IMG/VR virus record: IMGVR_UViG_2565956600_000007
Origin: a virus
Lineage: Duplodnaviria > Heunggongvirae > Uroviricota > Caudoviricetes
Strand: one strand, 5' to 3'
DNA: 12,520 nt
This document shows positions 1 to 12,520 of the stretch, piece by piece. The notes beneath the pieces are model-generated. The model did no database searches and was not told where the DNA came from. It saw only the letters and a list, made by a program, of their open reading frames with translations. Within the stretch, counting starts at the first letter, position 1. Each line of letters starts with the position of its first letter. Made by a program: the position numbers and the translations under genes.

Positions 1-9
1 TTAAACTGT

Positions 10-567
10 TCATGCGTTAGTTTCTCCACAACCAGAAGCAATCGACGCCACGACGCCCGGAGCTGCACACTCGCGGGCGTCATTACTTTCTGAAACGCAA
101 AAAATTTTGTAGACAAGTGCTGCATGCTCCTGCAGCTTCGAAATTGAGAGATACAGCTCGTCGTTAATTGCTGTCTTCTCATGCGGTTCCACTACACCGT
201 CTTCGATTGCCGAACGAATCTGTTTTGAATAACTGCCGATCTGTTCAATGACTTCCAGTAAACGCTGGTTAATATCGGCATTGTCCACATCCTCGACGTC
301 AGGAAGAGACACAAAGACGCCATTTGCAGACTGCGCCACAGCGTCAGCAATGAAGTGAGTTCCACCAGCACGTTGCAAAATCATTGCCCATCCCAGCGGG
401 AAAATCTGATCGCCATCGGCACGAAGGCGGTTAAATAATGCGTTCTCTGTTACATCCAGCCACTCAGCAGCTTCAGCGTAACCCCCCGGCAACGCCGCGA
501 TAGTTTTTCTGACAGCTTTCACGTACCACTCAGGCTGTTTTTCCACTTTCCAGTGATGATTACCCAC
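10..567 (-). CDS. Phage CII-like (possibly CP76-family) regulatory protein, 185 aa
   Basis: Complete ORF on the minus strand whose ATG (565-567) overlaps the 3' end of the upstream cro-like gene by 8 nt. Sits in the cro-cII position of a lambdoid immunity region. The family assignment is from memory of the N-terminal region and is not verified. Confidence 0.55.
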   Translation of the reverse strand: MGNHHWKVEKQPEWYVKAVRKTIAALPGGYAEAAEWLDVTENALFNRLRADGDQIFPLGWAMILQRAGGTHFIADAVAQSANGVFVSLPDVEDVDNADINQRLLEVIEQIGSYSKQIRSAIEDGVVEPHEKTAINDELYLSISKLQEHAALVYKIFCVSESNDARECAAPGVVASIASGCGETNA

Positions 568-820
568 GGCTTACCTCCTGTTCCTGTGGTTTAAACCCAT
601 TCTGGTTTTGGCTAGATTGAAAACGTGCCGGATAAAGAATCTGCATTTCGCTGATTTCACCCTTAAAAAAATTGGCCAGACGTTCTGCAAGATCGATAGA
701 TGGAATTTGTTCCAGTCTTTCAATACGACTCAGCGTCGCTGGATTGACCTGAACGCCAGCAGCAACATGCTGCAAAGTAAATCCGTGCGCCTTACGCACA
801 TTCCGTAATGGTGATTGCAT
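560..820 (-). CDS. cro: Cro-like HTH (XRE-family) transcriptional regulator, 86 aa
   Basis: Helix-turn-helix-like segment FTLQHVAAGVQVNPATLSRIERLEQIPSIDLAERLANFF. Transcribed divergently from the cI-like gene across an operator-bearing intergenic region. GGAGGT Shine-Dalgarno (revcomp of 824-829) sits 3 nt upstream of the ATG. Confidence 0.8.
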   Translation of the reverse strand: MQSPLRNVRKAHGFTLQHVAAGVQVNPATLSRIERLEQIPSIDLAERLANFFKGEISEMQILYPARFQSSQNQNGFKPQEQEVSRG

Positions 821-917
821 ATGACCTCCACATATTGCGTGATGAGCATATTATTTCACGCAAATATTTTGCGCAAGTTGATTTGCTTAACGCGCAATAA
901 AGAAATGTAATAAACGC
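821..917. promoter_or_regulatory. OR-like divergent operator/promoter region between cro and cI
   Basis: A perfect TTGC-N7-GCAA dyad at 883-897 (TTGCTTAACGCGCAA), plus degenerate copies at 835-849 (TTGCGTGATGAGCAT) and 869-883, and the inverted pair TTGCGTGA (835-842) / TCACGCAA (856-863). TGTAAT (-10-like, 906-911) lies 6 nt before the cI ATG with TTGCTT (-35-like, 883-888) at 17 bp spacing, which suggests a leaderless cI transcript. Confidence 0.55.
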
Positions 918-1610
918 ATGAACATAGGAAACCGAGTCAGACAACTTCGCCAGGCGAAGAACATGAAAATCGCCGATCTCGCTGAAGCAATAGGAGTGGA
1001 TGCGGCGAATATCTCACGCCTGGAAACAGGTAAGCAGAAACAATTCACTGAACAAGCCCTGAGTAATATTGCCAGGAGCTTAGGTGTTGATATTGCTGAT
1101 CTCTTTACCTCAGACTTCAAAAGTAATACTGTATGTAAAAACAGTATTAGTGAGGATGTTGCGCAGGTGAAGGATGTATTCCGTATTGAAATGCTGGATG
1201 TCAGTGCCAGTGCGGGAAATGGCCTTATCCAGGGCGGTGATGTCATTGATGTGATTCATGCCATTGAATACAGAACTGATAATGCTGTATCGATGTTTGG
1301 CGGACGGCCAGCCAATCACATTAAAGTTATCAACGTTCGTGGGGACAGTATGTGTCCAACCATTGAGCCAGGAGATCTCATCTTCGTTGATGTCAGTATC
1401 AATCAGTTTGATGGAGATGGTATCTATGTATTTGGTTTTGATGATAAAATTTATGTCAAACGACTGCAAATGATACCTGACAAACTACTGGTGATTTCTG
1501 ATAACCAGATTTACCGTGAATGGGGAATTACCAGCGAAAATGAACACCGGTTTATGGTCTTTGGAAAGGTCTTAATCAGCCAGTCACAAACCCTTAAGCG
1601 ACACAATTAA
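918..1610 (+). CDS. cI: CI-type prophage repressor, N-terminal HTH plus C-terminal S24 (LexA-like) autopeptidase, 230 aa
   Basis: N-terminal HTH (NRVRQLRQAKNMKIADLAEAIGVDAANISRLETGK). Ala-Gly linker (SASAGNG). C-terminal GDSM serine motif and VKRL lysine motif as in LexA/lambda CI. No Shine-Dalgarno upstream, consistent with a leaderless mRNA. Confidence 0.9.
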   Translation: MNIGNRVRQLRQAKNMKIADLAEAIGVDAANISRLETGKQKQFTEQALSNIARSLGVDIADLFTSDFKSNTVCKNSISEDVAQVKDVFRIEMLDVSASAGNGLIQGGDVIDVIHAIEYRTDNAVSMFGGRPANHIKVINVRGDSMCPTIEPGDLIFVDVSINQFDGDGIYVFGFDDKIYVKRLQMIPDKLLVISDNQIYREWGITSENEHRFMVFGKVLISQSQTLKRHN

Positions 1611-1630
1611 CCCTTACCTCCTCATCAATT

Positions 1631-1651
1631 AGCCACCCAAAGGTGGCTTTT
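1631..1651 (+). terminator. Possible intrinsic terminator after cI
   Basis: Stem AGCCACC (1631-1637) / GGTGGCT (1642-1648), loop CAAA, followed by TTT. The U-tract is short, so this is weak. Confidence 0.4.
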
Positions 1652-1665
1652 CATCACCCTTTAAA

Positions 1666-1704
1666 TTGCATATCTCGCAACAAAAACACTTGCATAATGC
1701 GCAA
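1666..1704. promoter_or_regulatory. OL-like operator pair (candidate pL region)
   Basis: Two perfect TTGC-N7-GCAA dyads, TTGCATATCTCGCAA (1666-1680) and TTGCATAATGCGCAA (1690-1704), 24 bp centre to centre, matching the dyad in the cro/cI intergenic region. CATAAT (-10-like) at 1693-1698. Confidence 0.5.
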
Positions 1705-2129
1705 CTTCATTTTATCTTTCTTTCCAGACAAACAAACAAGGTACTAACAAAATTTGGTTGTAACACGGCGTATGGCACATGCGTCGTTAGCGGTCTGGGG
1801 ACGTTAAAGGGGACAATCCACTCCTTGCTCGGGCAAACAAACCAGGTAGCCGGAATGTGCAAGTCAATGATGATGCTGATAAGACGCCTAACCAGCGTGG
1901 CGATTCGGTTTGACGCCTGGGAAGAGACCAGGGTGCAACGATGAGGGCATTTATGGAGCCGCGACAAAGTGTGGTGCCGTAACTGGCTAAGTGCTCTCAG
2001 CGTTGTGGTAATCCGCGAAATGGCGCGGCGGTAAGTATGGCGGGGTTACTCTTTCCCCGTTGAGGACACCGGATTGTCAGGTTGACCATACGCCTGAGTG
2101 ACAACCCCACCACAACAGCCACTGCTTTG

Positions 2130-2175
2130 GCGGTACCAGTTTGTACCCTTGCTTCCGGCTGGTACCGCTCTTTTT
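2130..2175 (+). terminator. Strong hairpin plus T5 tract in the early-left leader (tL-like terminator or boxA-like element)
   Basis: Perfect 10-bp stem GCGGTACCAG (2130-2139) / CTGGTACCGC (2159-2168), 19-nt loop, then TCTTTTT (2169-2175). The 3' flank CGCTCTTTTTACAA resembles boxA-like antitermination sequences. Confidence 0.45.
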
Positions 2176-2312
2176 ACAAAACAGAGAAGAGCATCACCGG
2201 ACGACGGGCTCATAACCCAATCCATCCGGGCGGCTGCCACCGCAGGTGTTCTTCTCCGTTTTGTGGAGAAACCAACCGACCTTGCAGGGTCGATATGATG
2301 AGGAGCAGCAAA

Positions 2313-2675
2313 ATGGCTAGCGAACGCAGTACTGATGTGCAGGCATTTATTGGGGAGCTGGACGGCGGCGTATTTGAAACCAAAATCGGCGCAGTTCTCA
2401 GTGAAGTCGCTTCCGGTGTGATGAACACGAAAACCAAAGGTAAGGTCTCGCTCAACCTGGAAATCGAACCGTTTGATGAGAATCGTGTGAAAATCAAACA
2501 CAAACTCTCGTATGTTCGCCCGACTAACCGCGGGAAAATTTCCGAAGAAGACACCACCGAAACGCCGATGTATGTCAATCGCGGTGGTCGCCTGACTATT
2601 CTGCAGGAAGACCAGGGACAATTACTGACTCTTGCTGGTGAACCTGACGGAAAACTCCGCGCAGCAGGTCATTAA
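2313..2675 (+). CDS. Phage early protein, YfdP-like, 120 aa
   Basis: AGGAG Shine-Dalgarno at 2301-2305, 7 nt before the ATG at 2313. The longer six-frame ORF from 2082 has no ribosome-binding site and runs through the terminator-like hairpin. Size and position match the first gene of the YfdP-YfdQ-YfdR block (from memory). Confidence 0.6.
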   Translation: MASERSTDVQAFIGELDGGVFETKIGAVLSEVASGVMNTKTKGKVSLNLEIEPFDENRVKIKHKLSYVRPTNRGKISEEDTTETPMYVNRGGRLTILQEDQGQLLTLAGEPDGKLRAAGH

Positions 2676-2740
2676 TATCGTTCTTAATTAACTGATTATT
2701 TATCTCATCACTGAATATCTTTATATAGTGAGGACTTATT

Positions 2741-3565
2741 ATGTCTCAGAACTTAGACGCAACCGCAATTAATCAAATCCATGCCCTTATTTCTGCTCAG
2801 GGTGTTAATGAAATTATCAGTAAGATTGGTGCCGATGCTGTGGCATTGCCTGAGAATTTCCGCATTCATGATCTGGAAAAATTTAATTTAAATCGCTTCC
2901 GTTTCCGTGGTGCGCTTTCCACTGCCAGCATCGATGACTTTACCCGTTATTCTAAAGATCTTGCAGATGAAGGCACCCGCTGCTTTATCGATGCTGATAA
3001 TATGCGTGCCGTCAGTGTGCTTAACCTGGGTACTATTGATGAACCAGGTCACGCAGATAACACCGCCACTCTCAAACTGAAAAAGACAGCACCGTTCTCT
3101 GCTCTGTTGTCTGTTAATGGCGAGCGTAACTCCCAGAAATCACTGGCAGAATGGATTGAAGACTGGGCCGACTACCTTGTGGGCTTTGATGCTAATGGTG
3201 ACACCATTCAGGCAACAAAAGCGGCTGCGGCGGTCCGTAAAATCACGATTGAAGCAAACCAGACCGCTGATTTTGAAGATAATGACTTCAGCGGCAAACG
3301 CTCCCTGATGGAGTCTGTCGAAGCGAAGACTAAAGACATTATGCCAGTGGCATTTGAATTTAAATGCGTTCCGTTTGAAGGCCTTAAAGAACGTCCGTTT
3401 AAATTACGCCTCAGCATTATCACTGGCGATCGTCCTGTACTGGTTCTGCGCATTATTCAGCTGGAAGCGGTGCAGGAAGAAATGGCTAACGAATTTCGTG
3501 ATCTGCTTGTTGAGAAATTTAAAGACAGCAAAGTAGAAACCTTTATTGGTACTTTTACCGCCTGA
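2741..3565 (+). CDS. yfdQ: Phage protein, YfdQ-like (DUF2303), 274 aa
   Basis: GTGAGGA Shine-Dalgarno at 2728-2734. Length and order (120 aa, 274 aa, then an HD-domain protein) match the CPS-53/KplE1 yfdP-yfdQ-yfdR arrangement as I recall it. Not verified by search. Confidence 0.65.
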
Positions 3566-3577
3566 TTTCATTACTGC

Positions 3578-3599
3578 AAATGCCCCTGCGGGGGCATTT
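3578..3599 (+). other. Stem-loop between the yfdQ-like and yfdR-like genes
   Basis: Stem AAATGCCCC (3578-3586) / GGGGCATTT (3591-3599), loop TGCG. No extended U-tract beyond the stem, so it may be an attenuator or an RNA-processing or stability element. Confidence 0.4.
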
Positions 3600-3692
3600 A
3601 TGGAAACGTAATTGACTCAATAATCGCCGGATGGTGAGGGCTTTCTTTTACCAGAATTCAGCGCGGTGCAGCGCATATACGTGGAGAACAAA

Positions 3693-4217
3693 ATGTCATT
3701 TATTAAAACTTTTTCCGGGAAGCATTTTTATTATGACAGGATAAATAAAGACGACATCGTTATTAACGATATCGCGGTTTCTCTTTCAAATATCTGTCGC
3801 TTTGCAGGACATCTTTCACATTTCTACAGCGTCGCCCAACATGCGGTGCTTTGCAGCCAACTGGTACCGCAGGAATTTGCTTTTGAAGCGTTAATGCATG
3901 ATGCAACAGAAGCGTATTGCCAGGACATTCCCGCACCACTGAAACGCCTTCTTCCTGACTATAAACGGATGGAAGAAAAAATAGACGCCGTAATCCGTGA
4001 GAAATACGGGTTACCCCCGGTTATGAGTACGCCCGTGAAATATGCCGATCTCATCATGCTGGCAACCGAACGCCGCGATCTCGGGCTTGATGATGGCTCT
4101 TTCTGGCCCGTACTGGAAGGTATCCCGGCAACAGAGATGTTCAAAGTTATTCCACTGTCGCCAGGCCATACCTATGGGATGTTTATGGAACGCTTTAAAG
4201 AGTTAACTGAGTCGTAA
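3693..4217 (+). CDS. yfdR: HD-domain phosphohydrolase (YfdR-like 5'-deoxynucleotidase family), 174 aa
   Basis: HD-superfamily motifs: His in SVAQHAVL and the H-D pair in EALMHDATEAY. GGAG Shine-Dalgarno at 3683-3686, 6 nt before the ATG at 3693, which is preferred over the upstream ATG at 3666. Confidence 0.7.
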   Translation: MSFIKTFSGKHFYYDRINKDDIVINDIAVSLSNICRFAGHLSHFYSVAQHAVLCSQLVPQEFAFEALMHDATEAYCQDIPAPLKRLLPDYKRMEEKIDAVIREKYGLPPVMSTPVKYADLIMLATERRDLGLDDGSFWPVLEGIPATEMFKVIPLSPGHTYGMFMERFKELTES

Positions 4218-4325
4218 AAATCAGCACGTACGAATTCAAACTCTGCCATAAAAGAACATATAAGTAATTTATTAACATATAGATATAGGTTATATTACAA
4301 ATTGAAAAATTATTGGAGAGCAACA

Positions 4326-5192
4326 ATGAATCAAAATCCATTCTCATTCTATGACTTTCTTGGATATTTAATACCAGGTGGTTTTTTTATCCTATTAATG
4401 TATTTCTGTGGTTTGACATTCGATCTAGATATTGTTATTGACTTAAGTGAATTGCTCAGAGGTCAAAGTCAAATCTTTGGCATTTTGAACTACGCTTCAA
4501 TAGTTATTATATCTTATATAGCTGGACATTTTATTTCTATCACGTCAGCATTTTTTATCGAAAAATACATGAATAAAGAATTAGGATATCCTTCCAAATA
4601 TCTATTTAAAAAATTGATAGATACCTCAGAAAGCATTTGTAGCCCATCATGCGATGAGAGAAGCGCTGATAAAAAAACAAAAATAAAGAATCGCATAATC
4701 AAATGCGTATTATGTCCAATAATACTATGGGATTTTATAACACAAAAACTATGTTATTCTCAATCTCTACCATTTCATTTAGCTAATACAACATGGTTAA
4801 TGATCAAAGAAGGTTATGAGAAAAAGTTCATAACAAATCGCCAATTATTACAAGATAAAAACGGACTTGATGATGATCTCTTCAGATTGGCATATCATTA
4901 TGTTTATGAGTTTTCAAAACAACATCAAACAAAAATTCAAAACTATGTTGCATTATATGGTTTTTGCAGAAACATATGTTTAATCTTTATAATTTCATTT
5001 TGGGTATCAGTTCCAACCTTTATTTATCGATTATGTACTCATAGTGATTATCTTTATAGTTTACTTTCAATAATGCTTAGCTTTTTCTTCGTCTATGTTT
5101 TCTATGTTGGTTTTGTTAAATTTTATAGAAGATATACTTTAGAAGTATTAATGGCATTTGCTGTACTTCAAAGTAACGACACTATTCGTTAA
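4326..5192 (+). CDS. AT-rich integral membrane protein of unknown function (about 4 TM helices), candidate moron, 288 aa
   Basis: GGAGAG Shine-Dalgarno at 4315-4320 before the ATG at 4326. Hydrophobic segments: FLGYLIPGGFFILLMYFCGLTF, IFGILNYASIVIISYIAGHFISITSAFFI, YVALYGFCRNICLIFIISFWVSV, LYSLLSIMLSFFFVYVFYVGFV. Composition is much more AT-rich than the flanking phage genes, with Lys/Asn/Ile/Tyr-rich codon usage. Confidence 0.7.
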   Translation: MNQNPFSFYDFLGYLIPGGFFILLMYFCGLTFDLDIVIDLSELLRGQSQIFGILNYASIVIISYIAGHFISITSAFFIEKYMNKELGYPSKYLFKKLIDTSESICSPSCDERSADKKTKIKNRIIKCVLCPIILWDFITQKLCYSQSLPFHLANTTWLMIKEGYEKKFITNRQLLQDKNGLDDDLFRLAYHYVYEFSKQHQTKIQNYVALYGFCRNICLIFIISFWVSVPTFIYRLCTHSDYLYSLLSIMLSFFFVYVFYVGFVKFYRRYTLEVLMAFAVLQSNDTIR

Positions 5193-5233
5193 TAATGTTG
5201 CTCCCGTGTGCAGACGGGATAATGGAGAAACGT

Positions 5234-5440
5234 ATGCTGAACCTCGATTGTGTTCCTATCTCAACTTATTGCAAAGAAACTGGCGAAACTCCTGAAGCAA
5301 TAAACAAACGTGTACAGCGCGGTGTTTGGCGTGAAGGTGTTCAGGTTTTAAAGGTTGAAGGCGTTAAGGAGAGGTGGATTGATCTTAGTGAGGTTGCAAA
5401 ATGGGCCAGACAAAACTGCTCAAACTACCGCGCGGCGTAA
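5234..5440 (+). CDS. xis: Excisionase (Xis-like), about 68 aa
   Basis: Small basic protein immediately upstream of int, overlapping it by 40 nt as in lambda xis/int. GGAG at 5224-5227 precedes the ATG at 5234. Alternative in-frame starts at 5222 and 5195. Confidence 0.6.
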   Translation: MLNLDCVPISTYCKETGETPEAINKRVQRGVWREGVQVLKVEGVKERWIDLSEVAKWARQNCSNYRAA

Positions 5441-6573
5441 CAATCAGGAAACACCGCCAGGGAGAAACGATCAATATAACTTTCACCTACAAAGGAGTTA
5501 GATGTCGTGAGCCGCTTTCCAATCTGGAAGTAACATCAAAGAACATTAAATACGCCGAGCGTACACTCGGCGAAATCCATAATAAGATCGAAAGGGGAAC
5601 ATTCATTTATGCAGAATATTTTCCCCGTTCTGCTCGTTTGAAAATTTTTGGTAATGCTGCTGCAGGCAAAACGGTAAAGATGTACCTGGACGAATATCTT
5701 GAAATCTGCGAAACAAGAAAACTTTCACCCTCTACGATTGGTGGCTATAAAAAATGCCGTAGTGCGTTAGCCTCACTTCACATTTGCCCTGCAAGTGAAT
5801 TAACACCAGCAACCCTGAAAGCGTGGATTCAAAGCCAGAAAACAACCTTAAAAACCATTCGCAACCAGTTATCTTTCCTACGGTCAGCACTTGATGAAGC
5901 CGTGACCGATGGGGTACTTCAAATTAACCCCGTATCGTTAGTAACAGCTTCGCGCTACCAAAGTGATAAGTCAGAAGCAGAAAGCAGCTATGTGGTTGAT
6001 CCGCTATCACCAGCAGAAGTTGATGCATTACTAGCAGCAGCCGGAAACAAACAATGGGAAAATCTGTTCCGGTTCGCCATACATACAGGCCTGCGTAGTT
6101 CTGAATTATGTGCCCTACGATGGCATGATATCGACTTTGTTGGAAAAACAGCCCATGTTCAGAGCGCAAGTGTTGTCGGAGTTATCAAAGGAACAAAGAC
6201 AAAAGCCGGTACCCGTAAAGTTGAACTGACTGAAGAAGCAATGTTGGCGTTGATAAACCAGAAGCCATTTACATTCATGAAGGATGCTACTGTCTTTGAA
6301 GATCCAAAGACCAATAAACCCTGGGCAAGTGCTGATGCAATTAGGAAAAAAGCATGGGTGCCAACATTGCGAAAAGCAGGTATTCGTTACAGAAACCCAT
6401 ATCAAACCAGGCATACATTCGCCACCAGCCATATCAGCCGGGGAGCAAACCTGTTTTGGCTTGCGGCTCAAATGGGCCATAAAGGGCCTGAAATGTTATT
6501 CAGGCACTATGGACAATACTTGAAAGAGTATGATGGGAGGGCAAGTATCAAGGATAAAAAGGCTTTATTTTAA
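5401..6573 (+). CDS. int: Tyrosine recombinase, lambda-type phage integrase, 390 aa
   Basis: N-terminal arm-binding-like region (LPRGVTIRKHRQGETINITFTYKGVRCREPL). Catalytic signature residues: R in TGLRSSELCALRW, H-x-x-R in TRHTFATSH, and a C-terminal H...Y in GHKGPEMLFRHYGQY. Confidence 0.9.
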   Translation: MGQTKLLKLPRGVTIRKHRQGETINITFTYKGVRCREPLSNLEVTSKNIKYAERTLGEIHNKIERGTFIYAEYFPRSARLKIFGNAAAGKTVKMYLDEYLEICETRKLSPSTIGGYKKCRSALASLHICPASELTPATLKAWIQSQKTTLKTIRNQLSFLRSALDEAVTDGVLQINPVSLVTASRYQSDKSEAESSYVVDPLSPAEVDALLAAAGNKQWENLFRFAIHTGLRSSELCALRWHDIDFVGKTAHVQSASVVGVIKGTKTKAGTRKVELTEEAMLALINQKPFTFMKDATVFEDPKTNKPWASADAIRKKAWVPTLRKAGIRYRNPYQTRHTFATSHISRGANLFWLAAQMGHKGPEMLFRHYGQYLKEYDGRASIKDKKALF

Positions 6574-7182
6574 GTCATTATGCCAATCGTCTACTGTTTG
6601 AAACCAAATTTTTAACCTTTGCATAAAGGTACGATCCTTTTTGGGAGGGTGGTACCTTTGAAAAGAAGTATGTAACGCTTCGATAACTCCCATACAAGCA
6701 TCAATTACTTCTTGTGCTTTAACCGGGCGATCGGCATCTGAAAGCTTGTGAGCGACCTCACAATCCAGAGTTGCTTTCTCTAGTACAGATGAGAACACCT
6801 CGTCAGGTATATACAGTCCTCTGCTTTCCAAAATGCAAATCAGTTTGGAAACTTGTTGAGCTTTAGCCAAGATAGTTAACAAGTATGAAACAGAAGCCTT
6901 TGTTCTATCCTTTTGCAACCTTAACAATCGATGCTTTGATGCTCTAATTTTAGGTTGAGTTGTCTGACTGAGCCAATAGTTAGAAGAAATATCAGAAATT
7001 TCAATAACTAACTTTGAAATAGCATCAATAATTGATTTCGATTCAGAACGTGTCGCCAGTTTTACAGAATTATTGTACGCAACTCGCCATCCAATGAAAA
7101 CTAAGCAGACGCTAACTACTGTGATACACCACGAATACTGTCCTATTTGTGCTACTAATGACATTGGTTCCGTACTGATCAA
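6565..7182 (-). CDS. Membrane-anchored protein of unknown function (N-terminal TM helix plus helical domain), third gene of the cargo operon, 205 aa
   Basis: TTG start at 7182 preceded by AAGAGG at 6 nt spacing; alternative ATG at 7164. N-terminal hydrophobic segment YSWCITVVSVCLVFIGWRVAY. The 3' end overlaps the int stop convergently by 9 bp. Confidence 0.55.
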   Translation of the reverse strand: MISTEPMSLVAQIGQYSWCITVVSVCLVFIGWRVAYNNSVKLATRSESKSIIDAISKLVIEISDISSNYWLSQTTQPKIRASKHRLLRLQKDRTKASVSYLLTILAKAQQVSKLICILESRGLYIPDEVFSSVLEKATLDCEVAHKLSDADRPVKAQEVIDACMGVIEALHTSFQRYHPPKKDRTFMQRLKIWFQTVDDWHNDLK

Positions 7183-7192
7183 CTATCGCCTC

Positions 7193-7519
7193 TTATACTC
7201 TTTCTGGTTGTGCTAAATCAATAAATTTATCAATCTGTTCTTTGTAGAACGGAACATCACTTTTTATAATCAAACGTGCTTTAACGTTGGCTTTAGGTAT
7301 CCCTTCCTTACGGATGAGACCTCCAAACGCCTCTTCTAAGAAAGAGGAACCAACACCCAGTGCTATACCGCGAAAATCAACCACAATCTCCTGTTCAGTA
7401 CCCTTCAGCGCAGGCACCAAAAACTCTCTACGAAATCTTTCCGCACTGTGTGGGCTATCCGTTGTGTAACGTCCGAAAGGTGTTCTGGAGAACTCCTTCG
7501 CTATGACGATATTTCTCAT
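7193..7519 (-). CDS. STAS-like (DUF4325-like, anti-sigma-factor-antagonist-like) protein, 108 aa
   Basis: Small protein with a VVDFRGIALGVGSSFLEEAFGGL segment resembling the SpoIIAA/RsbV region that carries the phosphorylatable Ser. AGGAG Shine-Dalgarno 8 nt upstream of the ATG. Starts 4 nt after the ATPase gene stop. Confidence 0.6.
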   Translation of the reverse strand: MRNIVIAKEFSRTPFGRYTTDSPHSAERFRREFLVPALKGTEQEIVVDFRGIALGVGSSFLEEAFGGLIRKEGIPKANVKARLIIKSDVPFYKEQIDKFIDLAQPERV

Positions 7520-7523
7520 AAAA

Positions 7524-8435
7524 TCATCTCCTGGGAACCAGCGACCATTGTAGTAAAGTACCCGGTATGTACTCAGCTAGCTTCTCACATCGAGGACTAC
7601 TGTCATTAGAATTATAGCTATAACGAGCCCTTCCTGTTAGTATCAGAAGTGTCTCATTATCCTCACAACCTGCCCCAATAGGTCTCTTGATATCTTCAGA
7701 GCCATTTCCCCGTCCGGAACCAACAAAGCGGGATTCCCCTACTAACATAGCTCTTTCCACAGAAGATACTTCGTTTTGAATGCTATGACCATCACCATTA
7801 GGCACGAAACTTCTATAAATCCCCAATCCAAGGTCACAAACGATAAAAACGACTTTATTTTCATCACGATTGAACCAAGCGCACTGCCACCATCGTTTAC
7901 CTTTGAGAAGCTGAATATCTGACTCGAACCCCTCATCTTCATACGCATGATGAGAAACATTGAGCAAAGCTTCACTAATCGCTGTCAGCAGTAAGCCTAA
8001 CTGTTCATTATTAAGCAGAGCACTTTTCTGCAGCATGAGTACTGTTTCAACAATATGCTCGTAAGGTTCGACAGCTGACTGAAAGTATCGTTCCTCCCTC
8101 GTAAGTGCATTCAGTTTCTCTTCTGTGCCAGCAAGCAAAGCACGAGCAAGTCCAGTACCAACGATCCATCTATGCCCAGATGGGTTATCATCCTTTTTAG
8201 GCCATTTAAAACGTATAAAATTAGGGTCCCGGGTTAAAAATTGAGCTCTATTTACTATGGCAAAGAACAGTACCGATGCCGCAGCTGAGGCAAATTTTAC
8301 CTTGGACAAATCAACTATAACTCGACCTTTATTTTTTACTCCAATCGATTCAATCGAGTTGATGAAGTTCAATGTCCCAGCCCTAGAATCATCTGAGTAA
8401 ATGCAAAATTTGCTTGGGGGTACCAGTATGGTCAT
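7524..8435 (-). CDS. GHKL-type ATPase (HATPase_c-like, RsbW/SpoIIAB-like putative Ser kinase) with a roughly 140-aa N-terminal domain of unknown function, 303 aa
   Basis: Bergerat-fold motifs in the correct order and spacing: N-box EALLNVSHHA, G1 box VCDLGLGI, G2 box GSGRGNG. First gene of a tightly packed three-gene minus-strand operon with an AT-rich upstream region (8436-8583). Confidence 0.65.
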   Translation of the reverse strand: MTILVPPSKFCIYSDDSRAGTLNFINSIESIGVKNKGRVIVDLSKVKFASAAASVLFFAIVNRAQFLTRDPNFIRFKWPKKDDNPSGHRWIVGTGLARALLAGTEEKLNALTREERYFQSAVEPYEHIVETVLMLQKSALLNNEQLGLLLTAISEALLNVSHHAYEDEGFESDIQLLKGKRWWQCAWFNRDENKVVFIVCDLGLGIYRSFVPNGDGHSIQNEVSSVERAMLVGESRFVGSGRGNGSEDIKRPIGAGCEDNETLLILTGRARYSYNSNDSSPRCEKLAEYIPGTLLQWSLVPRR

Positions 8436-8583
8436 AGCGATGTCATTCTTATACGATGGATTTATAGATTATCTACTATTCATAGTTGGTTATGAAGACT
8501 GGGATATAACAGTAAAAGATACGTGTAAGATCCGCAAGATAGTTAATGTCGAAAAAAATCATTAATTACATCAAGTTAGTGAT

Positions 8584-8619
8584 ATTTGGACTCGGGTTCA
8601 ACTCCCGCCAGCTCCACCA
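8584..8619 (+). other. ssrA: tmRNA (ssrA) 3'-terminal segment (T-arm, acceptor 3' strand, CCA): att core or displaced ssrA end
   Basis: ATTTGGACTCGGGTTCAACTCCCGCCAGCTCCACCA closely matches the 3' end of enterobacterial tmRNA as I recall it (GGACGCGGGTTCAACTCCCGCCAGCTCCACCA). Sequence upstream of 8584 is unrelated to tmRNA, so this is only a fragment. Confidence 0.7.
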
Positions 8620-8666
8620 AAATTCTCCATCGGTGATTACCAGAGTCATCCGATGAAGTCCTAAGA

Positions 8667-8698
8667 GCCCGCACGGCGCAAGCCCTGCGGGCTTTTTT
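8667..8698 (+). terminator. Intrinsic terminator downstream of the ssrA 3' segment
   Basis: Stem GCCCGCA (8667-8673) / TGCGGGC (8686-8692), 12-nt loop, then TTTTTT (8693-8698). Confidence 0.7.
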
Positions 8699-8752
8699 GT
8701 GCCCTCAATTTGTCCCGCGAAGTCCGAAGAAAACTAATTAAATCCGATCCTT

Positions 8753-8806
8753 TTAGGCACCTTGTTAGGCACCTCATAAAGCTTTATTGTTTTTTGAGGT
8801 GCCTAA
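8753..8806. promoter_or_regulatory. Three copies of a 9-bp motif TTAGGCACC upstream of the P4-type integrase (candidate arm-type or regulatory sites)
   Basis: Direct copies at 8753-8761 and 8765-8773, and an inverted copy GGTGCCTAA at 8798-8806, 19 bp upstream of the int ATG. Confidence 0.4.
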
Positions 8807-8824
8807 AACTATGGAAACCCGGCA

Positions 8825-10066
8825 ATGGCAAGACAAACCAAACCTCTATCCGTTAAAGAAATAGAATCAGCCAAACCCAAGGAGGCGGACTACGTTCTCT
8901 ATGATGGCGATGGCCTTGAGCTACTCATTAAATCCAGCGGGAGTAAAATCTGGCAGTTTCGCTACATTCGCCCTGTCACCAAGAAACGAGCAAAGAAGAG
9001 CATAGGCTCCTACCCGTCAGTTACCCTTGCCGATGCCAGAAACTACCGTGCAGAGTCCCGCTCACTACTGGCTAAACAGATCGATCCGCAGGAACATCAG
9101 CAAGAACAATTGCGCAGTTCGCTGGAAGCCAAAACCAACACTTTCCAACTCGTAGCTGAACGTTGGTGGAATGTGAAGAAAGCCAGTGTGACAGAGGACT
9201 ATGCGGAAGATATCTGGCGCTCTCTTGAAAGAGACGTCTTTCCTGCGATTGGCGACGTTAGCGTTACAGATATTAAAGCTCATACACTGGTTCAGGCCGT
9301 ACAACCGGTTCAGGCCAGAGGAGCACTGGAAACTGTTCGTCGCCTGTGCCAACGTATTAATGAGGTCATGATCTATGCCCAGAACACAGGGCTGATTGAT
9401 GCTGTTCCCAGCGTTAATATCGGTAAAGCCTTCGAGAAGCCTCAGAAAAAGAACATGCCCAGCATTCGACCGGATCAGCTACCTCAGTTAATGCAGACGA
9501 TGCGAACAGCCAGCATTAGCCTTTCCACACGCTGCCTGTTCATGTGGCAACTTCTTACTATTACCCGCCCTGCCGAAGCGGCTGAAGCTCTCTGGGAAGA
9601 GGTAGACATAGAAGCGCGAGAGTGGAAGATTCCTGCAGCACGCATGAAAATGAACCGCGACCATACTGTTCCATTGTCAGATGAAGCAATTGCGATACTA
9701 GAGATGATGAAGCCGTTAAGTGGAAATCGAGAATTTATCTTTCCCAGCCGCATCAAGCCAAACCAGCCGATGAACAGTCAGACCGTAAACGCATCGCTAA
9801 AACGCGCAGGTTTTGGTGGGGTGCTCGTTTCACACGGCCTGCGATCTATCGCCAGTACAGCCCTTAATGAGCAGGGATTTCCACCTGATGTTATTGAGGC
9901 TGCACTTGCTCATGTGGATAAGAATGAGGTTCGTCGTGCGTATAACCGTAGTGATTATCTTGAGCAGCGACGGCCTATGATGCAGTGGTGGGCTGATTTT
10001 GTGATGGCTGCAGATCACGGTAGTATGATTGAAGGAGGGATAAAGGCAATGCGGTTAGTTGGATGA
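8825..10066 (+). CDS. intA: P4/CP4-57-type tyrosine integrase, 413 aa
   Basis: N-terminal arm-binding-like region (KPKEADYVLYDGDGLELLIKSSGSKIWQFRY). Catalytic R in TITRPAEA, H-x-x-R in HGLRSIAST, C-terminal Y in RRAYNRSDY. Lies about 200 bp downstream of the ssrA 3' segment in the same orientation, as for intA next to ssrA in E. coli K-12 (from memory). Confidence 0.9.
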   Translation: MARQTKPLSVKEIESAKPKEADYVLYDGDGLELLIKSSGSKIWQFRYIRPVTKKRAKKSIGSYPSVTLADARNYRAESRSLLAKQIDPQEHQQEQLRSSLEAKTNTFQLVAERWWNVKKASVTEDYAEDIWRSLERDVFPAIGDVSVTDIKAHTLVQAVQPVQARGALETVRRLCQRINEVMIYAQNTGLIDAVPSVNIGKAFEKPQKKNMPSIRPDQLPQLMQTMRTASISLSTRCLFMWQLLTITRPAEAAEALWEEVDIEAREWKIPAARMKMNRDHTVPLSDEAIAILEMMKPLSGNREFIFPSRIKPNQPMNSQTVNASLKRAGFGGVLVSHGLRSIASTALNEQGFPPDVIEAALAHVDKNEVRRAYNRSDYLEQRRPMMQWWADFVMAADHGSMIEGGIKAMRLVG

Positions 10067-10146
10067 CATGTCGTAGCTAAAACCCGTTCTGTTTTTGGGT
10101 AGATTAACCTGAAGGTCTGCAATTTTAAATGACGCTGAAAGAAGTT

Positions 10147-10172
10147 AAACCCTGCTCTTAAGCAGGGTTTTT
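10147..10172. terminator. Bidirectional intrinsic terminator between the convergent integrase and cargo operon
   Basis: Stem AAACCCTGCT (10147-10156) / AGCAGGGTTT (10161-10170), loop CTTA, flanked by T and A runs. Confidence 0.6.
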
Positions 10173-10204
10173 ATGATTTATTCTAATTTTGGTTTTGAAT
10201 CTTT

Positions 10205-11299
10205 CTATTTTAAATCAGCCTTTGCGGCTCGAATATCTGCGTTTTTTGCTGAGTATTCCCATTCGTCAGCGATTCTAAATAGCATTGCAGAAGTACGGAC
10301 GCAGTGGGGCATTGAATTTGCCCATTCTCGGTACTGCTCAGCTAATATCCTTTCTTGGTTTCCACCTTCGTAACGCATACGAGCAAATACCCCCCTTTTA
10401 TTGTACCTACCAATTTGTATACCTTGCTCTAACTCATCAGAAGATAATATTTCAATGATGTGCCGAATTGCTTCATGTGGCCAGGAATTATCTACTGAGC
10501 TATTAGGGGCATGTGCCAGAATTTTTCCTATTACATGATCAGTGATTTCTTGGCGATGATGCAATTTTGCTAAATGGCGTACATTCTCACACCAATCTTC
10601 AAGTTTATCTTGATCAATTTCATTGTCTATCTGCCCTGGTAGTATTCGTAATTTTTCAAGTAATCTGTATATAGAAGTAGCTCTTTTAACTTCCAACTCC
10701 GATGGTTCTGTTTGTTCATCTTCGTCACTACGATATACAATACATATTGCTTCTATAAAAACCTCTGGCTTTTTCATCATTAGACGATGCAGGATAAGTG
10801 GCTCATCGCTATCCGGAAAACAAGGCAAGTAGGTCATTTCTTTAAATGCCAAATCTGTTTCAGAAACATCGTTACGTTGTTTGAGTTCATCAAAAACTTT
10901 TTTTACATAGTACGATAGCATTGTATCAAATTGGATATCCTGGCTATTTATTTCTTTAACGACTATATCTAGAAGATATAAAAGTGTTGTAGATGGAATC
11001 TCAGAAAGGCGTTGATTTGCTGATATAATAGCAGCAAGACCCCGGCCCCTTTCTATATATTTATCCATAAGAACAAATAAATCCGAAGTTTTACCCATCA
11101 TTGCAATGGGTTGTTTTTGCAACCAATATTTTTCGTTGATGTTATCTTCAAACCCTTCAATAATGCTCCATATCTCTTGTGAGTCTCTTAACGATGCTAA
11201 GATTTTCCCAGCCCTATCAGGGGTAATTTTAAACTGTTTAAAATACACTTTTATTTTATTAAGCCATTCAGCACCAAAGCATTCAACACCATATTGCAT
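10205..11299 (-). CDS. Hypothetical protein (AT-rich, predicted largely helical), distal gene of a translationally coupled pair, about 364 aa
   Basis: ATG at 11297-11299 overlaps the upstream stop as TAATG. The six-frame TTG start at 11305 is less likely. No Walker A, nuclease or other motif recognisable by eye. Confidence 0.65.
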   Translation of the reverse strand: MQYGVECFGAEWLNKIKVYFKQFKITPDRAGKILASLRDSQEIWSIIEGFEDNINEKYWLQKQPIAMMGKTSDLFVLMDKYIERGRGLAAIISANQRLSEIPSTTLLYLLDIVVKEINSQDIQFDTMLSYYVKKVFDELKQRNDVSETDLAFKEMTYLPCFPDSDEPLILHRLMMKKPEVFIEAICIVYRSDEDEQTEPSELEVKRATSIYRLLEKLRILPGQIDNEIDQDKLEDWCENVRHLAKLHHRQEITDHVIGKILAHAPNSSVDNSWPHEAIRHIIEILSSDELEQGIQIGRYNKRGVFARMRYEGGNQERILAEQYREWANSMPHCVRTSAMLFRIADEWEYSAKNADIRAAKADLK

Positions 11300-12520
11300 T
11301 AACAACCCACAAACTTCATCAATATTTTTTTGTTGTTAATAAGCATTACAAACAAATCATTTAATTTTTCTTCATCCAACGAGAGTGCTGATATATGCCT
11401 TGCTGCAATAAAAACATTATTAACTTGTTGAAAAAGGTCTTTCACCCCAGACAAACCTAAAGTAAAGTATATTTCCCTAAGTTTTTCACTTCGCATTTCT
11501 TCGACAGAAGAAAAAATTCCGCCAGCATTTTCAATTGACTCTTCAATATCAGAATCCCAATCATTGAAAATCCATAAACTGGCTCTAACCATGTCAATTG
11601 GTTTATAATTATCAAGTATTTTCGCTATTTTTTCCATAGACTCAAATTTAAATGCCCAGTTCGCATCTGAATATTTTTTATGGCGAGAATACTCATGACG
11701 CAAAGCCTCCCATACGATGAACTGATCCTCTTCAGTTTGTTGAGAAAGGCAAAGTTCAAGATGAGAAAGTGTTTCATCTATTGCATTCTCAGGGAATGAG
11801 CTTAAATGAGAGATTAGGATTTCCCATCTTGTTGGGAGTATACCTGCAAGTTTAATTGCTTCTTGGATAATAAAGATTTGCCCCTCCCAAACAACGCCCC
11901 ACGTTAGTTTTTCTACATCTTTATCCGACTCTCTGAACTTCATTTTTTGGTTTTGATCAGAGGTATCATGGGAGCGAGGAAGGAGATTTTGTAACAAACT
12001 CCACCCAATACTAGGAACAATAGTGATAATTTTTTTTATAATTGCATTTCTAACTTTTACTGGTGCCCATGTATTAGGAGACCATGCCAGAAAAATGGTT
12101 CTTAAACTATTAAGAGGGCGATCTGAGTAAGTTCCTCCGGGATCTATTACAGCGAGTTTTGCAAGACAGATTGCAGCGCGTAATAGATATGTTTGTTCCC
12201 AAGCCAAGGCTTCCAATGCCCATTTTAATCCATGATAATGACTTCGAGGAGTTAACAGCCCTTTATCTTCATTGAATATTGGAGCAATCATTTCCCCATT
12301 GCCCTTAAGCAATTGCTCAAGGGCATCAAGGAAAGGGCCAGGGGCAGCTTCTGCCAGCAGCGGAAGTTGATCTCGCAAACTAACAAATAGTCGATGGTCG
12401 TTAGCAAGTCCCGGAATACTCTGAACTATTTTGTTAACAAAATCTTGGGGTGTCATACCAGTAACCCGGAATTCGGCCTGTTCATGTAATATGATCTTAC
12501 CCAGCAATAGTGGACACGCG
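11299..12520 (-). CDS. Hypothetical protein, 5'-partial (the reading frame is open to the window edge; more than 402 aa)
   Basis: The frame is open through 12508-12519 on the minus strand, so the true start is outside the window. AT-rich, with no recognisable catalytic motif. Confidence 0.65.
   Translation of the reverse strand, partial: ACPLLLGKIILHEQAEFRVTGMTPQDFVNKIVQSIPGLANDHRLFVSLRDQLPLLAEAAPGPFLDALEQLLKGNGEMIAPIFNEDKGLLTPRSHYHGLKWALEALAWEQTYLLRAAICLAKLAVIDPGGTYSDRPLNSLRTIFLAWSPNTWAPVKVRNAIIKKIITIVPSIGWSLLQNLLPRSHDTSDQNQKMKFRESDKDVEKLTWGVVWEGQIFIIQEAIKLAGILPTRWEILISHLSSFPENAIDETLSHLELCLSQQTEEDQFIVWEALRHEYSRHKKYSDANWAFKFESMEKIAKILDNYKPIDMVRASLWIFNDWDSDIEESIENAGGIFSSVEEMRSEKLREIYFTLGLSGVKDLFQQVNNVFIAARHISALSLDEEKLNDLFVMLINNKKILMKFVGC

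What the first reader, a model, noticed from the sequence alone, without database searches (positions are those of the whole stretch)
4218..5233. Strongly AT-rich multi-TM membrane protein inserted between conserved early genes and xis (candidate moron, possibly superinfection exclusion or abortive infection)
The gene at 4326-5192 has its own AT-rich upstream region and a good Shine-Dalgarno sequence. Its composition is far more AT-rich than the flanking yfdR-like and xis/int genes. It encodes two N-terminal and two C-terminal hydrophobic helices around a hydrophilic central domain of about 130 aa. In the CPS-53 layout I recall, other small genes occupy this position, so it looks like a swapped-in accessory gene. 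A small hairpin (TCCCGT at 5202-5207 / ACGGGA at 5214-5219) lies between its stop and xis.
Basis: partly seen in the sequence, partly recalled or inferred. Interest (0 to 1): 0.5.

Follow-up and report, generated by a model that had tools for sequence, protein, structure and literature searches.

The report
Swapped-in Csx27-like prophage membrane gene
A strongly AT-rich gene has been swapped into a resident E. coli prophage just before its excision and integration genes. It encodes a four-helix inner-membrane protein from a large, unstudied family distantly related to the CRISPR accessory protein Csx27, and it probably helps exclude other phages, though that is untested.

Summary
Window 4213-5202 is a 990-bp cassette with GC 0.28 against 0.44 for the rest (z = -9.8). 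It carries one ORF (4326-5192, 288 aa, GGAG Shine-Dalgarno) between yfdR and xis/int. Prophages with the same xis/int, and K-12 CPS-53, carry yfdS/yfdT-type genes there instead.

The protein has four transmembrane (TM) helices, both ends in the cytoplasm, and a cytoplasmic helical domain of about 130 aa. It is under purifying selection (dN/dS about 0.2).

The family is large (957 clusters at 50% identity, many phyla; phrog_12528) and nearly always AT-rich relative to its flanks. It usually sits alone in variable regions.

Two links are new:
- 51 of 66 diverse members match the PADLOC Csx27 model (type VI-B CRISPR accessory protein), colinearly and nearly full-length.
- A 43%-identical homologue is protein 2 of "DUF4760 + 4TM", the third commonest cassette in the P2 defence hotspot (1102 occurrences). 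It is catalogued but absent from the held tables of tested systems.

The moron reading is supported. A defence or exclusion role is plausible but unproven. The hairpin is no better than chance and belongs to the xis leader.

The parts
4213..5202 (.). Exchanged cassette: leader, ORF and 10 nt beyond the stop. It replaces the yfdS/yfdT-type genes of related prophages.
   Evidence: blastn against AVS0171 (L005) and K-12 (L006): homology stops at 4212 and resumes at 5203. Most E. coli hits end at query 913, which is window 4212. This is the lowest-GC 990-nt stretch of the window. No flanking direct repeats.
4218..4325 (+). AT-rich leader (GC 0.26) with GGAG Shine-Dalgarno at 4315-4318. The only promoter-like site is weak: TTTATT-17-TATATT from 4268.
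   Evidence: The tool's sigma-70 scan finds nothing here. A relaxed scan finds one site matching 3/6 + 5/6. In another prophage lineage (L110) homology starts only at 4313, so the leader is not always part of the mobile unit.
4326..5192 (+). CDS of 288 aa, WP_001075212.1. Four-TM inner-membrane protein of family phrog_12528, a remote Csx27 homologue.
   Evidence: dN/dS is 0.16-0.22 against homologues 80-88% identical at the nucleotide level.
4335..4421 (+). Conserved N-terminal motif NPFSxYDFLGYxxPG running into TM1 (aa 4-32).
   Evidence: Invariant or near-invariant columns in A3. Hydropathy. The Csx27 model alignment starts here, at model position 4.
4479..4559 (+). TM2 (aa 52-78) with invariant Y64, G67, S74, near-invariant H68, and E79 at its cytoplasmic end.
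4560..4943 (+). Cytoplasmic helical domain (aa 79-206). It holds the YPS motif, P131 in a hydrophobic helix, and R187/H191/E195/H200 just before TM3. It includes a variable, low-confidence stretch at aa 101-113.
   Evidence: 21 K+R. Helices and pLDDT. Conservation.
4944..5126 (+). TM3 (aa 207-237; NYVALYGFxR with invariant R215, plus W226) and TM4 (aa 241-267; FYxGFxKF).
5127..5189 (+). C-terminal cytoplasmic helix (YRRxTLExxM motif).
3693..4217 (+). Left flank: yfdR (5'-deoxynucleotidase, HD domain). It is the last conserved gene before the variable slot.
5234..5440 (+). Right flank: excisionase-like gene (phrog_2917). Its leader (5203-5233) contains the 5202-5219 hairpin.
5401..6573 (+). Right flank: tyrosine integrase.
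   Evidence: Arm-DNA-bind_2, Phage_integrase.

Best explanation
Shown. Window 4213-5202 is a single-gene accessory cassette (a moron). It was recombined into the last slot of the early-left operon of a CPS-53-like lambdoid prophage remnant, directly upstream of xis-int. It encodes a polytopic inner-membrane protein with four TM helices and both ends in the cytoplasm. Three long TM helices extend into a cytoplasmic helical domain of about 130 aa.

The protein belongs to a large, horizontally mobile, AT-rich family (phrog_12528) that has no Pfam model. The family is a remote homologue of the type VI-B CRISPR accessory protein Csx27. It also includes the 4-TM protein of the 'DUF4760 + 4TM' cassette of the P2 defence hotspot.

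Inferred. The protein is a self-contained membrane effector that excludes other phages or mobile DNA. The most conserved residues are D10, Y14, H68, E79, R187, H191, E195, H200, N206, R215, K265, R268 and E273. By the predicted topology, all of them sit at or just inside the cytoplasmic face of the TM bundle. I read this as a ligand- or signal-sensing site that controls the bundle. In this model an infection cue opens or rearranges an oligomeric bundle and compromises membrane energisation. That is an abortive-infection logic, like RexB or Csx28, but with sensor and effector in one chain. In P2-like phages the adjacent 1-TM DUF4760 protein would be an added regulator.

Timing is open. The gene may be expressed in the lysogen or only after induction from the early-left promoter.
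For: Cassette and moron status:
- Breakpoints at 4212 and 5203.
- The slot is filled by other genes in K-12 and AVS0171.
- GC and GC3 are far below the flanks.

The protein is real and functional:
- dN/dS is 0.16-0.22.
- 957 clusters at 50% identity with E <= 1e-3, and 208 with E <= 1e-30.
- A confident model with pLDDT 89.5 and pTM 0.88.

Topology.

Csx27 homology:
- Window protein E = 1.4e-5 over aa 6-268 against model positions 4-188 of 206.
- 51 of 66 diverse members hit, best E = 2.2e-10.
- Most detailed matches are colinear, starting at model position 4 and ending at about 180-190.

Defence-type contexts:
- The P2 hotspot cassette, system #3 with 1102 occurrences in Table S5B of PMC9122126, seen again in L003, L004 and L138-L144.
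- A distant member sits among MmeI-type RM, DEAD+T5orf172, HEPN_AbiU2, NucS-like and PDDEXK genes.
- Immediate neighbours elsewhere include integrases, type I RM subunits, ResIII and AAA_21.
- A Bacteroides member lies 2 nt upstream of a patatin gene.

Family-wide foreign composition: 44 of 44 viral loci and 76 of 79 genomic loci are lower in GC than their flanks.

Self-contained: no neighbour family is shared by more than 3 of 78 loci.

Precedent from established knowledge: membrane effectors such as RexB and Csx28 act by depolarisation (Csx28 as cited).
Against: - There is no experimental evidence for any member. The P2 cassette appears only in the catalogue table, not among the cloned systems in the held text.
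- The window protein matches no PADLOC model other than Csx27 and tm_4.
- Many chromosomal members sit alone among housekeeping genes (after nrdAB in Pseudomonas, among core genes in Rheinheimera) or in polysaccharide loci. These are not defence islands.
- No convincing independent promoter precedes the gene. In Enterobacter prophages it is packed into the operon with spacers of about 40 nt. It may therefore be expressed only after induction, which suits a lytic-cycle function as well as lysogen defence.
- The only assayed relative, Csx27, repressed immunity rather than enhancing it.
- The oligomeric state and any pore are pure inference.
Confidence: 0.4

Rival explanations
1. Superinfection exclusion at the DNA-entry step. 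The protein sits in the inner membrane and blocks or diverts incoming phage DNA, without killing the cell. In function this resembles T4 Imm, P22 SieA or HK97 gp15. It also fits the published prediction that Csx27-family proteins are channels that handle DNA crossing the membrane.
For: - Inner-membrane location with both ends in the cytoplasm.
- Carried by temperate phages at accessory slots next to int or in the P2 old/tin hotspot.
- Csx27 homology.
- The Makarova 2019 proposal of an ssDNA channel, as quoted.
- Expression from the early-left operon would suit exclusion during the phage's own lytic cycle.
Against: - From general knowledge, exclusion proteins that block entry are usually narrow, lineage-specific families. 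This family keeps about 30 near-invariant residues from Proteobacteria to Firmicutes, Bacteroidota, Chloroflexi and wall-less Acholeplasmataceae. That argues for a conserved biochemical activity rather than a specific block.
- There is no similarity to SieB or other known exclusion families.
- The ssDNA-channel idea is itself untested.
Confidence: 0.2
2. A membrane-embedded enzyme that alters the envelope (lysogenic conversion), for example by modifying a lipid or a lipid-linked glycan precursor at the cytoplasmic face. This could change phage receptors or surface antigens.
For: - A conserved His/Glu/Asp/Arg/Tyr/Ser cluster at the cytoplasmic membrane interface looks like an active site.
- Some members lie in polysaccharide loci. 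Immediate neighbours include GT2 (3), WecG (2), epimerase (2) and GT1 (2), and a Bacteroides member sits at the end of a capsule locus.
- The position at the prophage end near int is typical of conversion genes (general knowledge).
Against: - Only a small minority of the 78 loci have sugar-pathway neighbours, and no such gene accompanies it in phages.
- There is no similarity to any known transferase, acyltransferase or hydrolase by sequence or fold.
- Polysaccharide loci are themselves low-GC variable regions that collect unrelated cargo.
Confidence: 0.12
3. A regulator or anti-defence factor. Like Csx27, which lowered Cas13b interference, the phage protein would dampen a host or competitor immune effector, or a membrane stress response. 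This would benefit the phage during induction or infection.
For: - The only assayed relative represses immunity.
- The gene is co-oriented with and tightly packed at the end of the early-left operon, with no clear promoter of its own. That predicts expression during lytic growth.
Against: - E. coli lacks type VI-B CRISPR, and the window holds no cas gene or CRISPR array.
- Most family members are chromosomal and not in phages.
- P2-hotspot cargo is mostly defensive in the cited study.
Confidence: 0.1
4. A decaying or functionless ORF carried along in an AT-rich spacer of a prophage remnant.
For: - The prophage looks defective: replication gene O is a pseudogene in the closest genome.
- One viral locus carries a split copy (L137).
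Against: - dN/dS is 0.16-0.22, and the seven homologues compared have intact frames.
- 176 E. coli genomes carry it at >=99% identity.
- Deep conservation across phyla.
- A confident, well-packed model.
Confidence: 0.03

Closest known systems
Csx27 (accessory membrane protein of type VI-B1 CRISPR-Cas; PADLOC PDLC01605, related model tm_4)
   Same: HMM-level homology is significant, colinear and nearly full-length. It starts at the shared N-terminal motif and ends at TM4. Both are predicted four-TM proteins. From memory of the abstract, and as quoted, Makarova et al. 2019 (FEMS Microbiol Lett fnz088) described Csx27 as part of an expansive 4-TM family found in non-CRISPR contexts.
   Different: - The window has no cas13b and no CRISPR array.
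- This protein is about 80 aa longer, through a cytoplasmic helical insertion between TM2 and TM3.
- It is carried by temperate phages of Enterobacteriaceae.
- It usually stands alone. The immediate neighbours show none of the competence, ubiquitin-system or WYL partners reported for the Csx27 family.
- Csx27's own mechanism is unknown. It repressed Cas13b and did not localise to the membrane in E. coli.
- I could not read the 2019 paper, so I do not know whether this subfamily was included.
Protein 2 of the 'DUF4760 + 4TM' cassette, system #3 of the P2-like phage hotspot (Rousset et al. 2022, PMC9122126, Table S5B)
   Same: It belongs to the same family: 43% identity over the full length, with all motifs shared. 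Both are phage accessory cargo at a variable slot, and both are AT-rich (GC 0.32 against 0.52 in the flanks).
   Different: - In P2-like phages a 165-aa, 1-TM DUF4760 gene sits directly upstream. Here the upstream gene is yfdR and the window has no DUF4760 gene.
- The phage type and slot differ: a lambdoid early-left operon end against the P2 old/tin hotspot.
- The P2 cassette has no reported activity in the held text.
RexB of phage lambda and Csx28 (membrane effectors of abortive infection)
   Same: This is an analogy in how it may work. All are small polytopic or oligomeric inner-membrane proteins encoded by prophages or defence loci. RexB is also a 4-TM protein (noted in Rousset's tables). 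Csx28 forms a depolarising pore.
   Different: There is no sequence or fold similarity, and PADLOC gives no RexB or Csx28 hit. RexB needs RexA and Csx28 needs Cas13b, whereas this protein has no conserved partner.
Classical superinfection-exclusion proteins (SieB PF14163, P22 SieA, T4 Imm/Sp, HK97 gp15)
   Same: They are prophage-encoded membrane proteins at accessory positions. Some relatives of this prophage also carry SieB elsewhere in the genome.
   Different: There is no homology. This family is far more widely distributed than any known exclusion family.

Membership tests
phrog_12528 (PHROGs v4, unknown function) | Full-length match to the family HMM | tested here: met
   E = 8e-174, aa 1-288 against profile 1-288 of 288. 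All 66 diverse members also match.
Csx27 superfamily (sequence level) | Significant, colinear similarity to the Csx27 profile | tested here: met
   Window protein E = 1.4e-5, aa 6-268 against model 4-188 of 206. 51 of 66 family members hit, best 2.2e-10. Five of the seven detailed matches span model position 4 to about 180-190; two are partial. No alignment to individual Csx27 sequences could be made.
Csx27 superfamily (sequence level) | Four predicted transmembrane helices | tested here: met
   Four hydrophobic segments and the positive-inside pattern; helices in the model.
Csx27 sensu stricto (type VI-B1 accessory protein) | Encoded next to cas13b and a CRISPR array | tested here: not met
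   The neighbours are yfdR and xis/int. The window has no large effector ORF and no repeat array.
Csx27 sensu stricto (type VI-B1 accessory protein) | Modulates (represses) Cas13b interference | not testable with these tools
   This is a functional assay (Smargon et al.).
'DUF4760 + 4TM' cassette of the P2 hotspot (Rousset 2022, system #3) | 4-TM protein homologous to protein 2 | tested here: met
   42-44% identity over the full length to P0121 / L003. The sequence matches Table S5B apart from single-residue differences.
'DUF4760 + 4TM' cassette of the P2 hotspot (Rousset 2022, system #3) | Adjacent 1-TM DUF4760 partner gene | tested here: not met
   The upstream gene is the HD-domain yfdR. 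No scanned window protein matches DUF4760. The only 1-TM candidate (6565-7182) shows no similarity.
'DUF4760 + 4TM' cassette of the P2 hotspot (Rousset 2022, system #3) | Location between the portal gene Q and replication gene A of a P2-like phage | tested here: not met
   The window is a lambdoid, CPS-53-like prophage.
Known anti-phage defence systems (PADLOC-DB v2.0.0) | Match to a validated defence protein model other than CRISPR accessories | tested here: not met
   The window protein hits only Csx27 and tm_4. Three distant family members give marginal hits to the candidate models PDC-M48A and PDC-S47.
Superinfection exclusion (SieB and similar) or holin/lysis proteins | Sequence or fold similarity to a known family, or position in the lysis cassette | tested here: not met
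Moron (independently acquired prophage accessory gene) | Present or absent between otherwise homologous prophages, with deviant composition | tested here: met
Moron (independently acquired prophage accessory gene) | Own promoter and terminator, with expression in the lysogen | tested here: inconclusive
   No consensus promoter or terminator flanks the gene. There is only one weak promoter-like site. The downstream hairpin is not a terminator. No transcript data were available.

The most novel reading that the evidence does not exclude
The family (phrog_12528) is a new, widespread, single-gene membrane immune module with a fold not represented in the PDB. The 4-TM protein would sense an infection cue at its conserved cytoplasmic juxtamembrane site and then act on the membrane or on incoming DNA. 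Csx27 of type VI-B CRISPR and the very common 'DUF4760 + 4TM' cassette of P2-like phages would be two domesticated versions of the same effector. That would link a CRISPR accessory protein of unknown mechanism to phage-versus-phage warfare in Enterobacteriaceae.
Probability: 0.3. Interest if true: 0.65.

Novelty: new variant of a known kind. Interest (0 to 1): 0.45.

Why it matters
Three points make it worth a bench test.

1. The family is large and found across many phyla, yet it has no Pfam or NCBIfam model, no structural relative and no assigned function. One member is the third most frequent cargo of the P2 defence hotspot, so a result would explain more than a thousand catalogued loci.

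2. The link to Csx27 gives an easily handled E. coli model for a CRISPR accessory protein whose mechanism has been unknown since 2017.

3. This exact gene is carried, 100% identical, by well-studied ExPEC and APEC strains (UTI89, S88, IHE3034, APEC O1, NU14) and by the E. coli type strain. It may therefore affect phage susceptibility of clinically relevant lineages, which matters for phage therapy.

If it turns out to be inert or only a lytic-cycle helper, it is an ordinary hypothetical moron.

Tried and rejected
- Pfam and NCBIfam on the protein, and Pfam on 66 diverse relatives: nothing.
- PDB sequence-profile search: nothing at E <= 1.
- Foldseek against viral structures (BFVD): best E = 0.64.
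- The AFDB library was unavailable.
- Conserved-partner search: all-against-all BLAST of the four genes on each side in 78 genomic loci found no neighbour family in more than 3 loci. Pfam and PADLOC on the immediate neighbours were heterogeneous.
- A DUF4760 partner in the window was rejected.
- The hairpin as a terminator or regulatory element was rejected.
- Transposon-like insertion was rejected: no direct repeats around the cassette.
- No tRNA attachment site in the window.
- A holin or lysis role was rejected on position and lack of homology.
- Literature: the accession WP_001075212 appears in no held paper. 'Csx27-like', 'Csx27 family' and 'Csx27 homolog' returned nothing. Makarova et al. 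2019 and the Mol Cell version of Smargon et al. are not held.
- Three context look-ups landed on contigs too short to be informative.
Full report
**1. The observation**

The ORF at 4326-5192 (+) is real. It encodes 288 aa, and GGAG sits at 4315-4318, 7 nt before the ATG. RefSeq annotates exactly this frame as WP_001075212.1, 'hypothetical protein'.

GC falls to 0.27-0.31 across about 4200-5250, against 0.40-0.50 on either side. The ORF has GC 0.284 and GC3 0.215, whereas yfdQ, yfdR, xis and int have GC3 of 0.39-0.48. The deviation is therefore at the codon level and not only a matter of amino-acid content. Against the rest of the window (0.436), the 990-nt segment is 9.8 standard deviations low. 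It is also the lowest-GC 990-nt stretch of the whole window.

Hydropathy gives two N-terminal and two C-terminal hydrophobic segments around a K/R-rich domain of about 130 aa. That domain has 21 K+R, against 1 and 0 in the two short loops. This puts both termini and the central domain in the cytoplasm.

The hairpin at 5202-5219 exists, but 34 of 200 shuffles fold as well (z = -0.93) and no T-run follows it.

**2. It is a swapped-in cassette**

- The 1016-nt region occurs once per genome in 205 of 5426 complete E. coli genomes. 176 copies are >=99% identical, including UTI89, S88, IHE3034, APEC O1, NU14 and the type strain ATCC 11775.
- A 3-kb query around it hits 3009 genomes. In most of them homology ends at query 913, which is window 4212, the 3' end of yfdR.
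- K-12 CPS-53 continues with yfdS, yfdT and torI.
- Strain AVS0171 has an identical xis product and the same integrase. It carries a yfdS-like gene and a 216-nt ORF in the slot.
- Pairwise blastn places the breakpoints at 4212 and 5203. In another lineage (L110) the left break is at 4313, so only the Shine-Dalgarno sequence and ORF are shared. In a third lineage (L113) the right break is at 5236.
- No direct repeats flank the segment. It therefore moved by recombination at gene boundaries, not by transposition.
- The hairpin lies in the xis leader, which prophages lacking the gene also have.

**3. The protein family**

Pfam and NCBIfam find nothing. PHROGs gives a full-length hit to phrog_12528, function unknown.

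The word-indexed search found 593 relatives, all of those listed being unnamed or 'hypothetical', mostly from Enterobacteriaceae. An exhaustive profile search found 957 clusters at 50% identity with E <= 1e-3, of which 208 have E <= 1e-30. Nearly all of those listed are 260-300 aa.

A genome scan confirmed 115 loci. They come from Gamma-, Beta- and Deltaproteobacteria, Bacteroidota, Firmicutes, Chloroflexi, Acidobacteria, Spirochaetes, Gemmatimonadota and an Acholeplasmataceae MAG.

In 66 diverse members the invariant or near-invariant residues are:
- N4-P5-F6-S7, Y9-D10-F11-L12-G13-Y14, P17-G18
- Y64, G67-H68, S74, E79
- Y88-P89-S90, P131
- R187, H191, E195, H200
- N206-Y207-V208-A209-L210, G212, R215, W226
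- F263, K265, F266, R268, L272-E273, M276

By the topology, nearly all of these lie at or just inside the cytoplasmic face of the four TM helices. This placement is inferred, because I could not inspect model coordinates.

dN/dS against homologues 80-88% identical at the nucleotide level is 0.16-0.22.

**4. Structure**

With the 66-sequence alignment, AlphaFold2 gives pLDDT 89.5 and pTM 0.88. The model is all-helical, and TM2, TM3 and TM4 continue as long helices into the cytoplasmic domain.

**5. Two connections to known things**

(a) Csx27. PADLOC's Csx27 model (type VI-B CRISPR accessory protein) matches the window protein at E = 1.4e-5, over aa 6-268 against model positions 4-188 of 206. 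It also matches 51 of 66 diverse family members, best 2.2e-10. A second VI-B-associated model, tm_4, matches 19 of 66.

The fuller matches are colinear. They start at model position 4, on the N-terminal PFSxYDF motif, and end at about model 180-190, on TM4. This argues for true remote homology rather than shared hydrophobicity.

Csx27 is a predicted membrane protein that repressed Cas13b interference in E. coli. Its mechanism is unknown. Makarova et al. 2019 extended it to a broad 4-TM family and proposed a DNA channel (quoted; the paper is not held).

(b) The P2 hotspot. In P2-like phages a 43%-identical homologue lies between portal gene Q and replication gene A, next to ParM/StbA-type genes and directly after a DUF4760 gene.

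Table S5B of Rousset et al. 2022 lists exactly this pair as system #3 of the P2 hotspot, with 1102 occurrences: '1 TM in protein 1, 4 TM in protein 2'. It appears neither in the main text nor in the held tables of cloned systems. It therefore seems to be untested.

**6. Genomic contexts**

Phages. Of 43 viral loci with neighbour maps, at least 23 have the homologue immediately upstream of an excisionase and/or integrase at the prophage end. The integrases fall into at least four lineages:
- the window type (89-98% identity),
- the Klebsiella P7641 type,
- relatives 45-46% identical to the P7641 integrase,
- relatives 23-25% identical to it.

The upstream genes differ between these prophages. 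Five loci are of the P2 type with DUF4760. In Enterobacter prophages the gene is packed into the operon with spacers of about 40 nt.

Chromosomes. Across 78 loci no neighbour family recurs in more than 3 loci. Immediate neighbours are heterogeneous: integrase 4, GT2 3, RNR small subunit 3, ResIII 2, type I RM S subunits 2, AAA_21 2. Individual cases are:
- a clear defence island with MmeI-type RM, DEAD+T5orf172, HEPN_AbiU2, FRG, PDDEXK and NucS-like genes;
- a solitary low-GC insertion after nrdAB in Pseudomonas;
- a solitary gene among core genes in Rheinheimera;
- the end of a Bacteroides capsule locus, 2 nt before a patatin gene.

Composition. The gene is lower in GC than its 4-kb flanks in 44 of 44 viral loci (0.318 against 0.475) and in 76 of 79 genomic loci (0.329 against 0.420). 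This is the signature of persistently mobile cargo.

**7. Interpretation**

Shown:
- It is a single-gene cassette of foreign composition, placed at a variable slot of the prophage.
- It encodes a conserved, selected, four-TM inner-membrane protein.
- The family is large and uncharacterised, homologous to Csx27, and includes a very common P2-hotspot cargo gene.

Inferred: it has a defence or exclusion role. I favour a self-contained, gated membrane effector acting by abortive infection (confidence 0.4). The reasons are the deep conservation of a cytoplasmic juxtamembrane polar cluster, the absence of a conserved partner, and the precedents of RexB and Csx28.

A block of DNA entry (0.2) fits the phage context and the DNA-channel proposal. 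It sits less well with conservation across many phyla.

A membrane enzyme (0.12) and a regulator or anti-defence role (0.1) cannot be excluded. The latter deserves attention because there is no convincing promoter. The gene lies at the end of the early-left operon, so it may be made only after induction. Csx27 itself also lowered immunity.

A functionless ORF is disfavoured.

**8. Novelty and verdict**

The gene itself is catalogued (RefSeq, PHROGs, Rousset's table) but has no function. I did not find the family-wide link to Csx27, or the recurrent position before xis-int, in the held literature. I could not read the 2019 Csx27 family paper, so I cannot say whether it covers this subfamily.

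I rate it a new variant of a known kind: a stand-alone, phage-borne, enlarged Csx27-superfamily protein. It is of moderate interest, easy to test and potentially informative. As it stands, it is a well-characterised hypothetical moron.

Noticed in passing
window 6565-8435 (- strand): A three-gene cluster follows the integrase and overlaps its 3' end by 9 nt. It consists of a 205-aa protein with an N-terminal hydrophobic segment, a 108-aa STAS-like DUF4325 protein, and a 303-aa protein with a weak HATPase_c_2 match. None has a PADLOC or NCBIfam hit. Strain AVS0171 has a different gene after the same integrase, so this may be a second variable cargo slot.
   Followed up: partly
window 8825-12507: A second integrase of the PRK09692 type (8825-10066, E = 5e-281) is followed by AT-rich ORFs on the minus strand (10205-11305 and 11299-12507, GC 0.32-0.39). 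In the closest genome (MEI7BO1-21) these two are annotated as one 1248-aa hypothetical protein, followed by a 1283-aa P-loop NTPase. In the window the reading frame appears split at about 11299-11305. This looks like a separate island abutting the prophage, possibly defence-related.
   Followed up: partly
window 1-12520: ARAGORN finds no tRNA or tmRNA gene although two integrases are present. In UTI89 the prophage end abuts glaH (csiD) rather than the second island.
   Followed up: partly
window 1611-2312: About 700 nt between the cI-like repressor gene (918-1610) and yfdP have the highest GC of the window (0.54-0.56). They carry overlapping ORFs on both strands. The closest genome annotates no gene there, and UTI89 annotates a frameshifted pseudogene.
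   Followed up: no
L178 2169-2966 (closest genome, just left of the window): Replication protein O is annotated as a truncated pseudogene, so the prophage carrying the cassette is probably defective in that strain.
   Followed up: no
L177 10001-12875 (Bacteroides sp. MAG): A 321-aa family member ends 2 nt before a 635-aa patatin-like phospholipase gene, which is followed by an AEP-like gene. The group sits at the end of a capsule locus. This may be a two-gene module pairing the 4-TM protein with a lipase effector.
   Followed up: no
L174 8612-10882; L059, L060, L082, L083 (Pseudomonas/Stutzerimonas): Family members are inserted right after nrdA-nrdB as solitary genes with GC 0.34-0.42 in genomes of about 0.60 GC. 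No mobility gene is seen in the one annotated locus (L174).
   Followed up: partly
L137 about 5800-6865 (IMG/VR prophage): A split copy of the gene is present: a 67-aa ORF and a 189-aa ORF, 92% and 75% identical to the window protein. This is the only disrupted copy seen among the viral loci.
   Followed up: no
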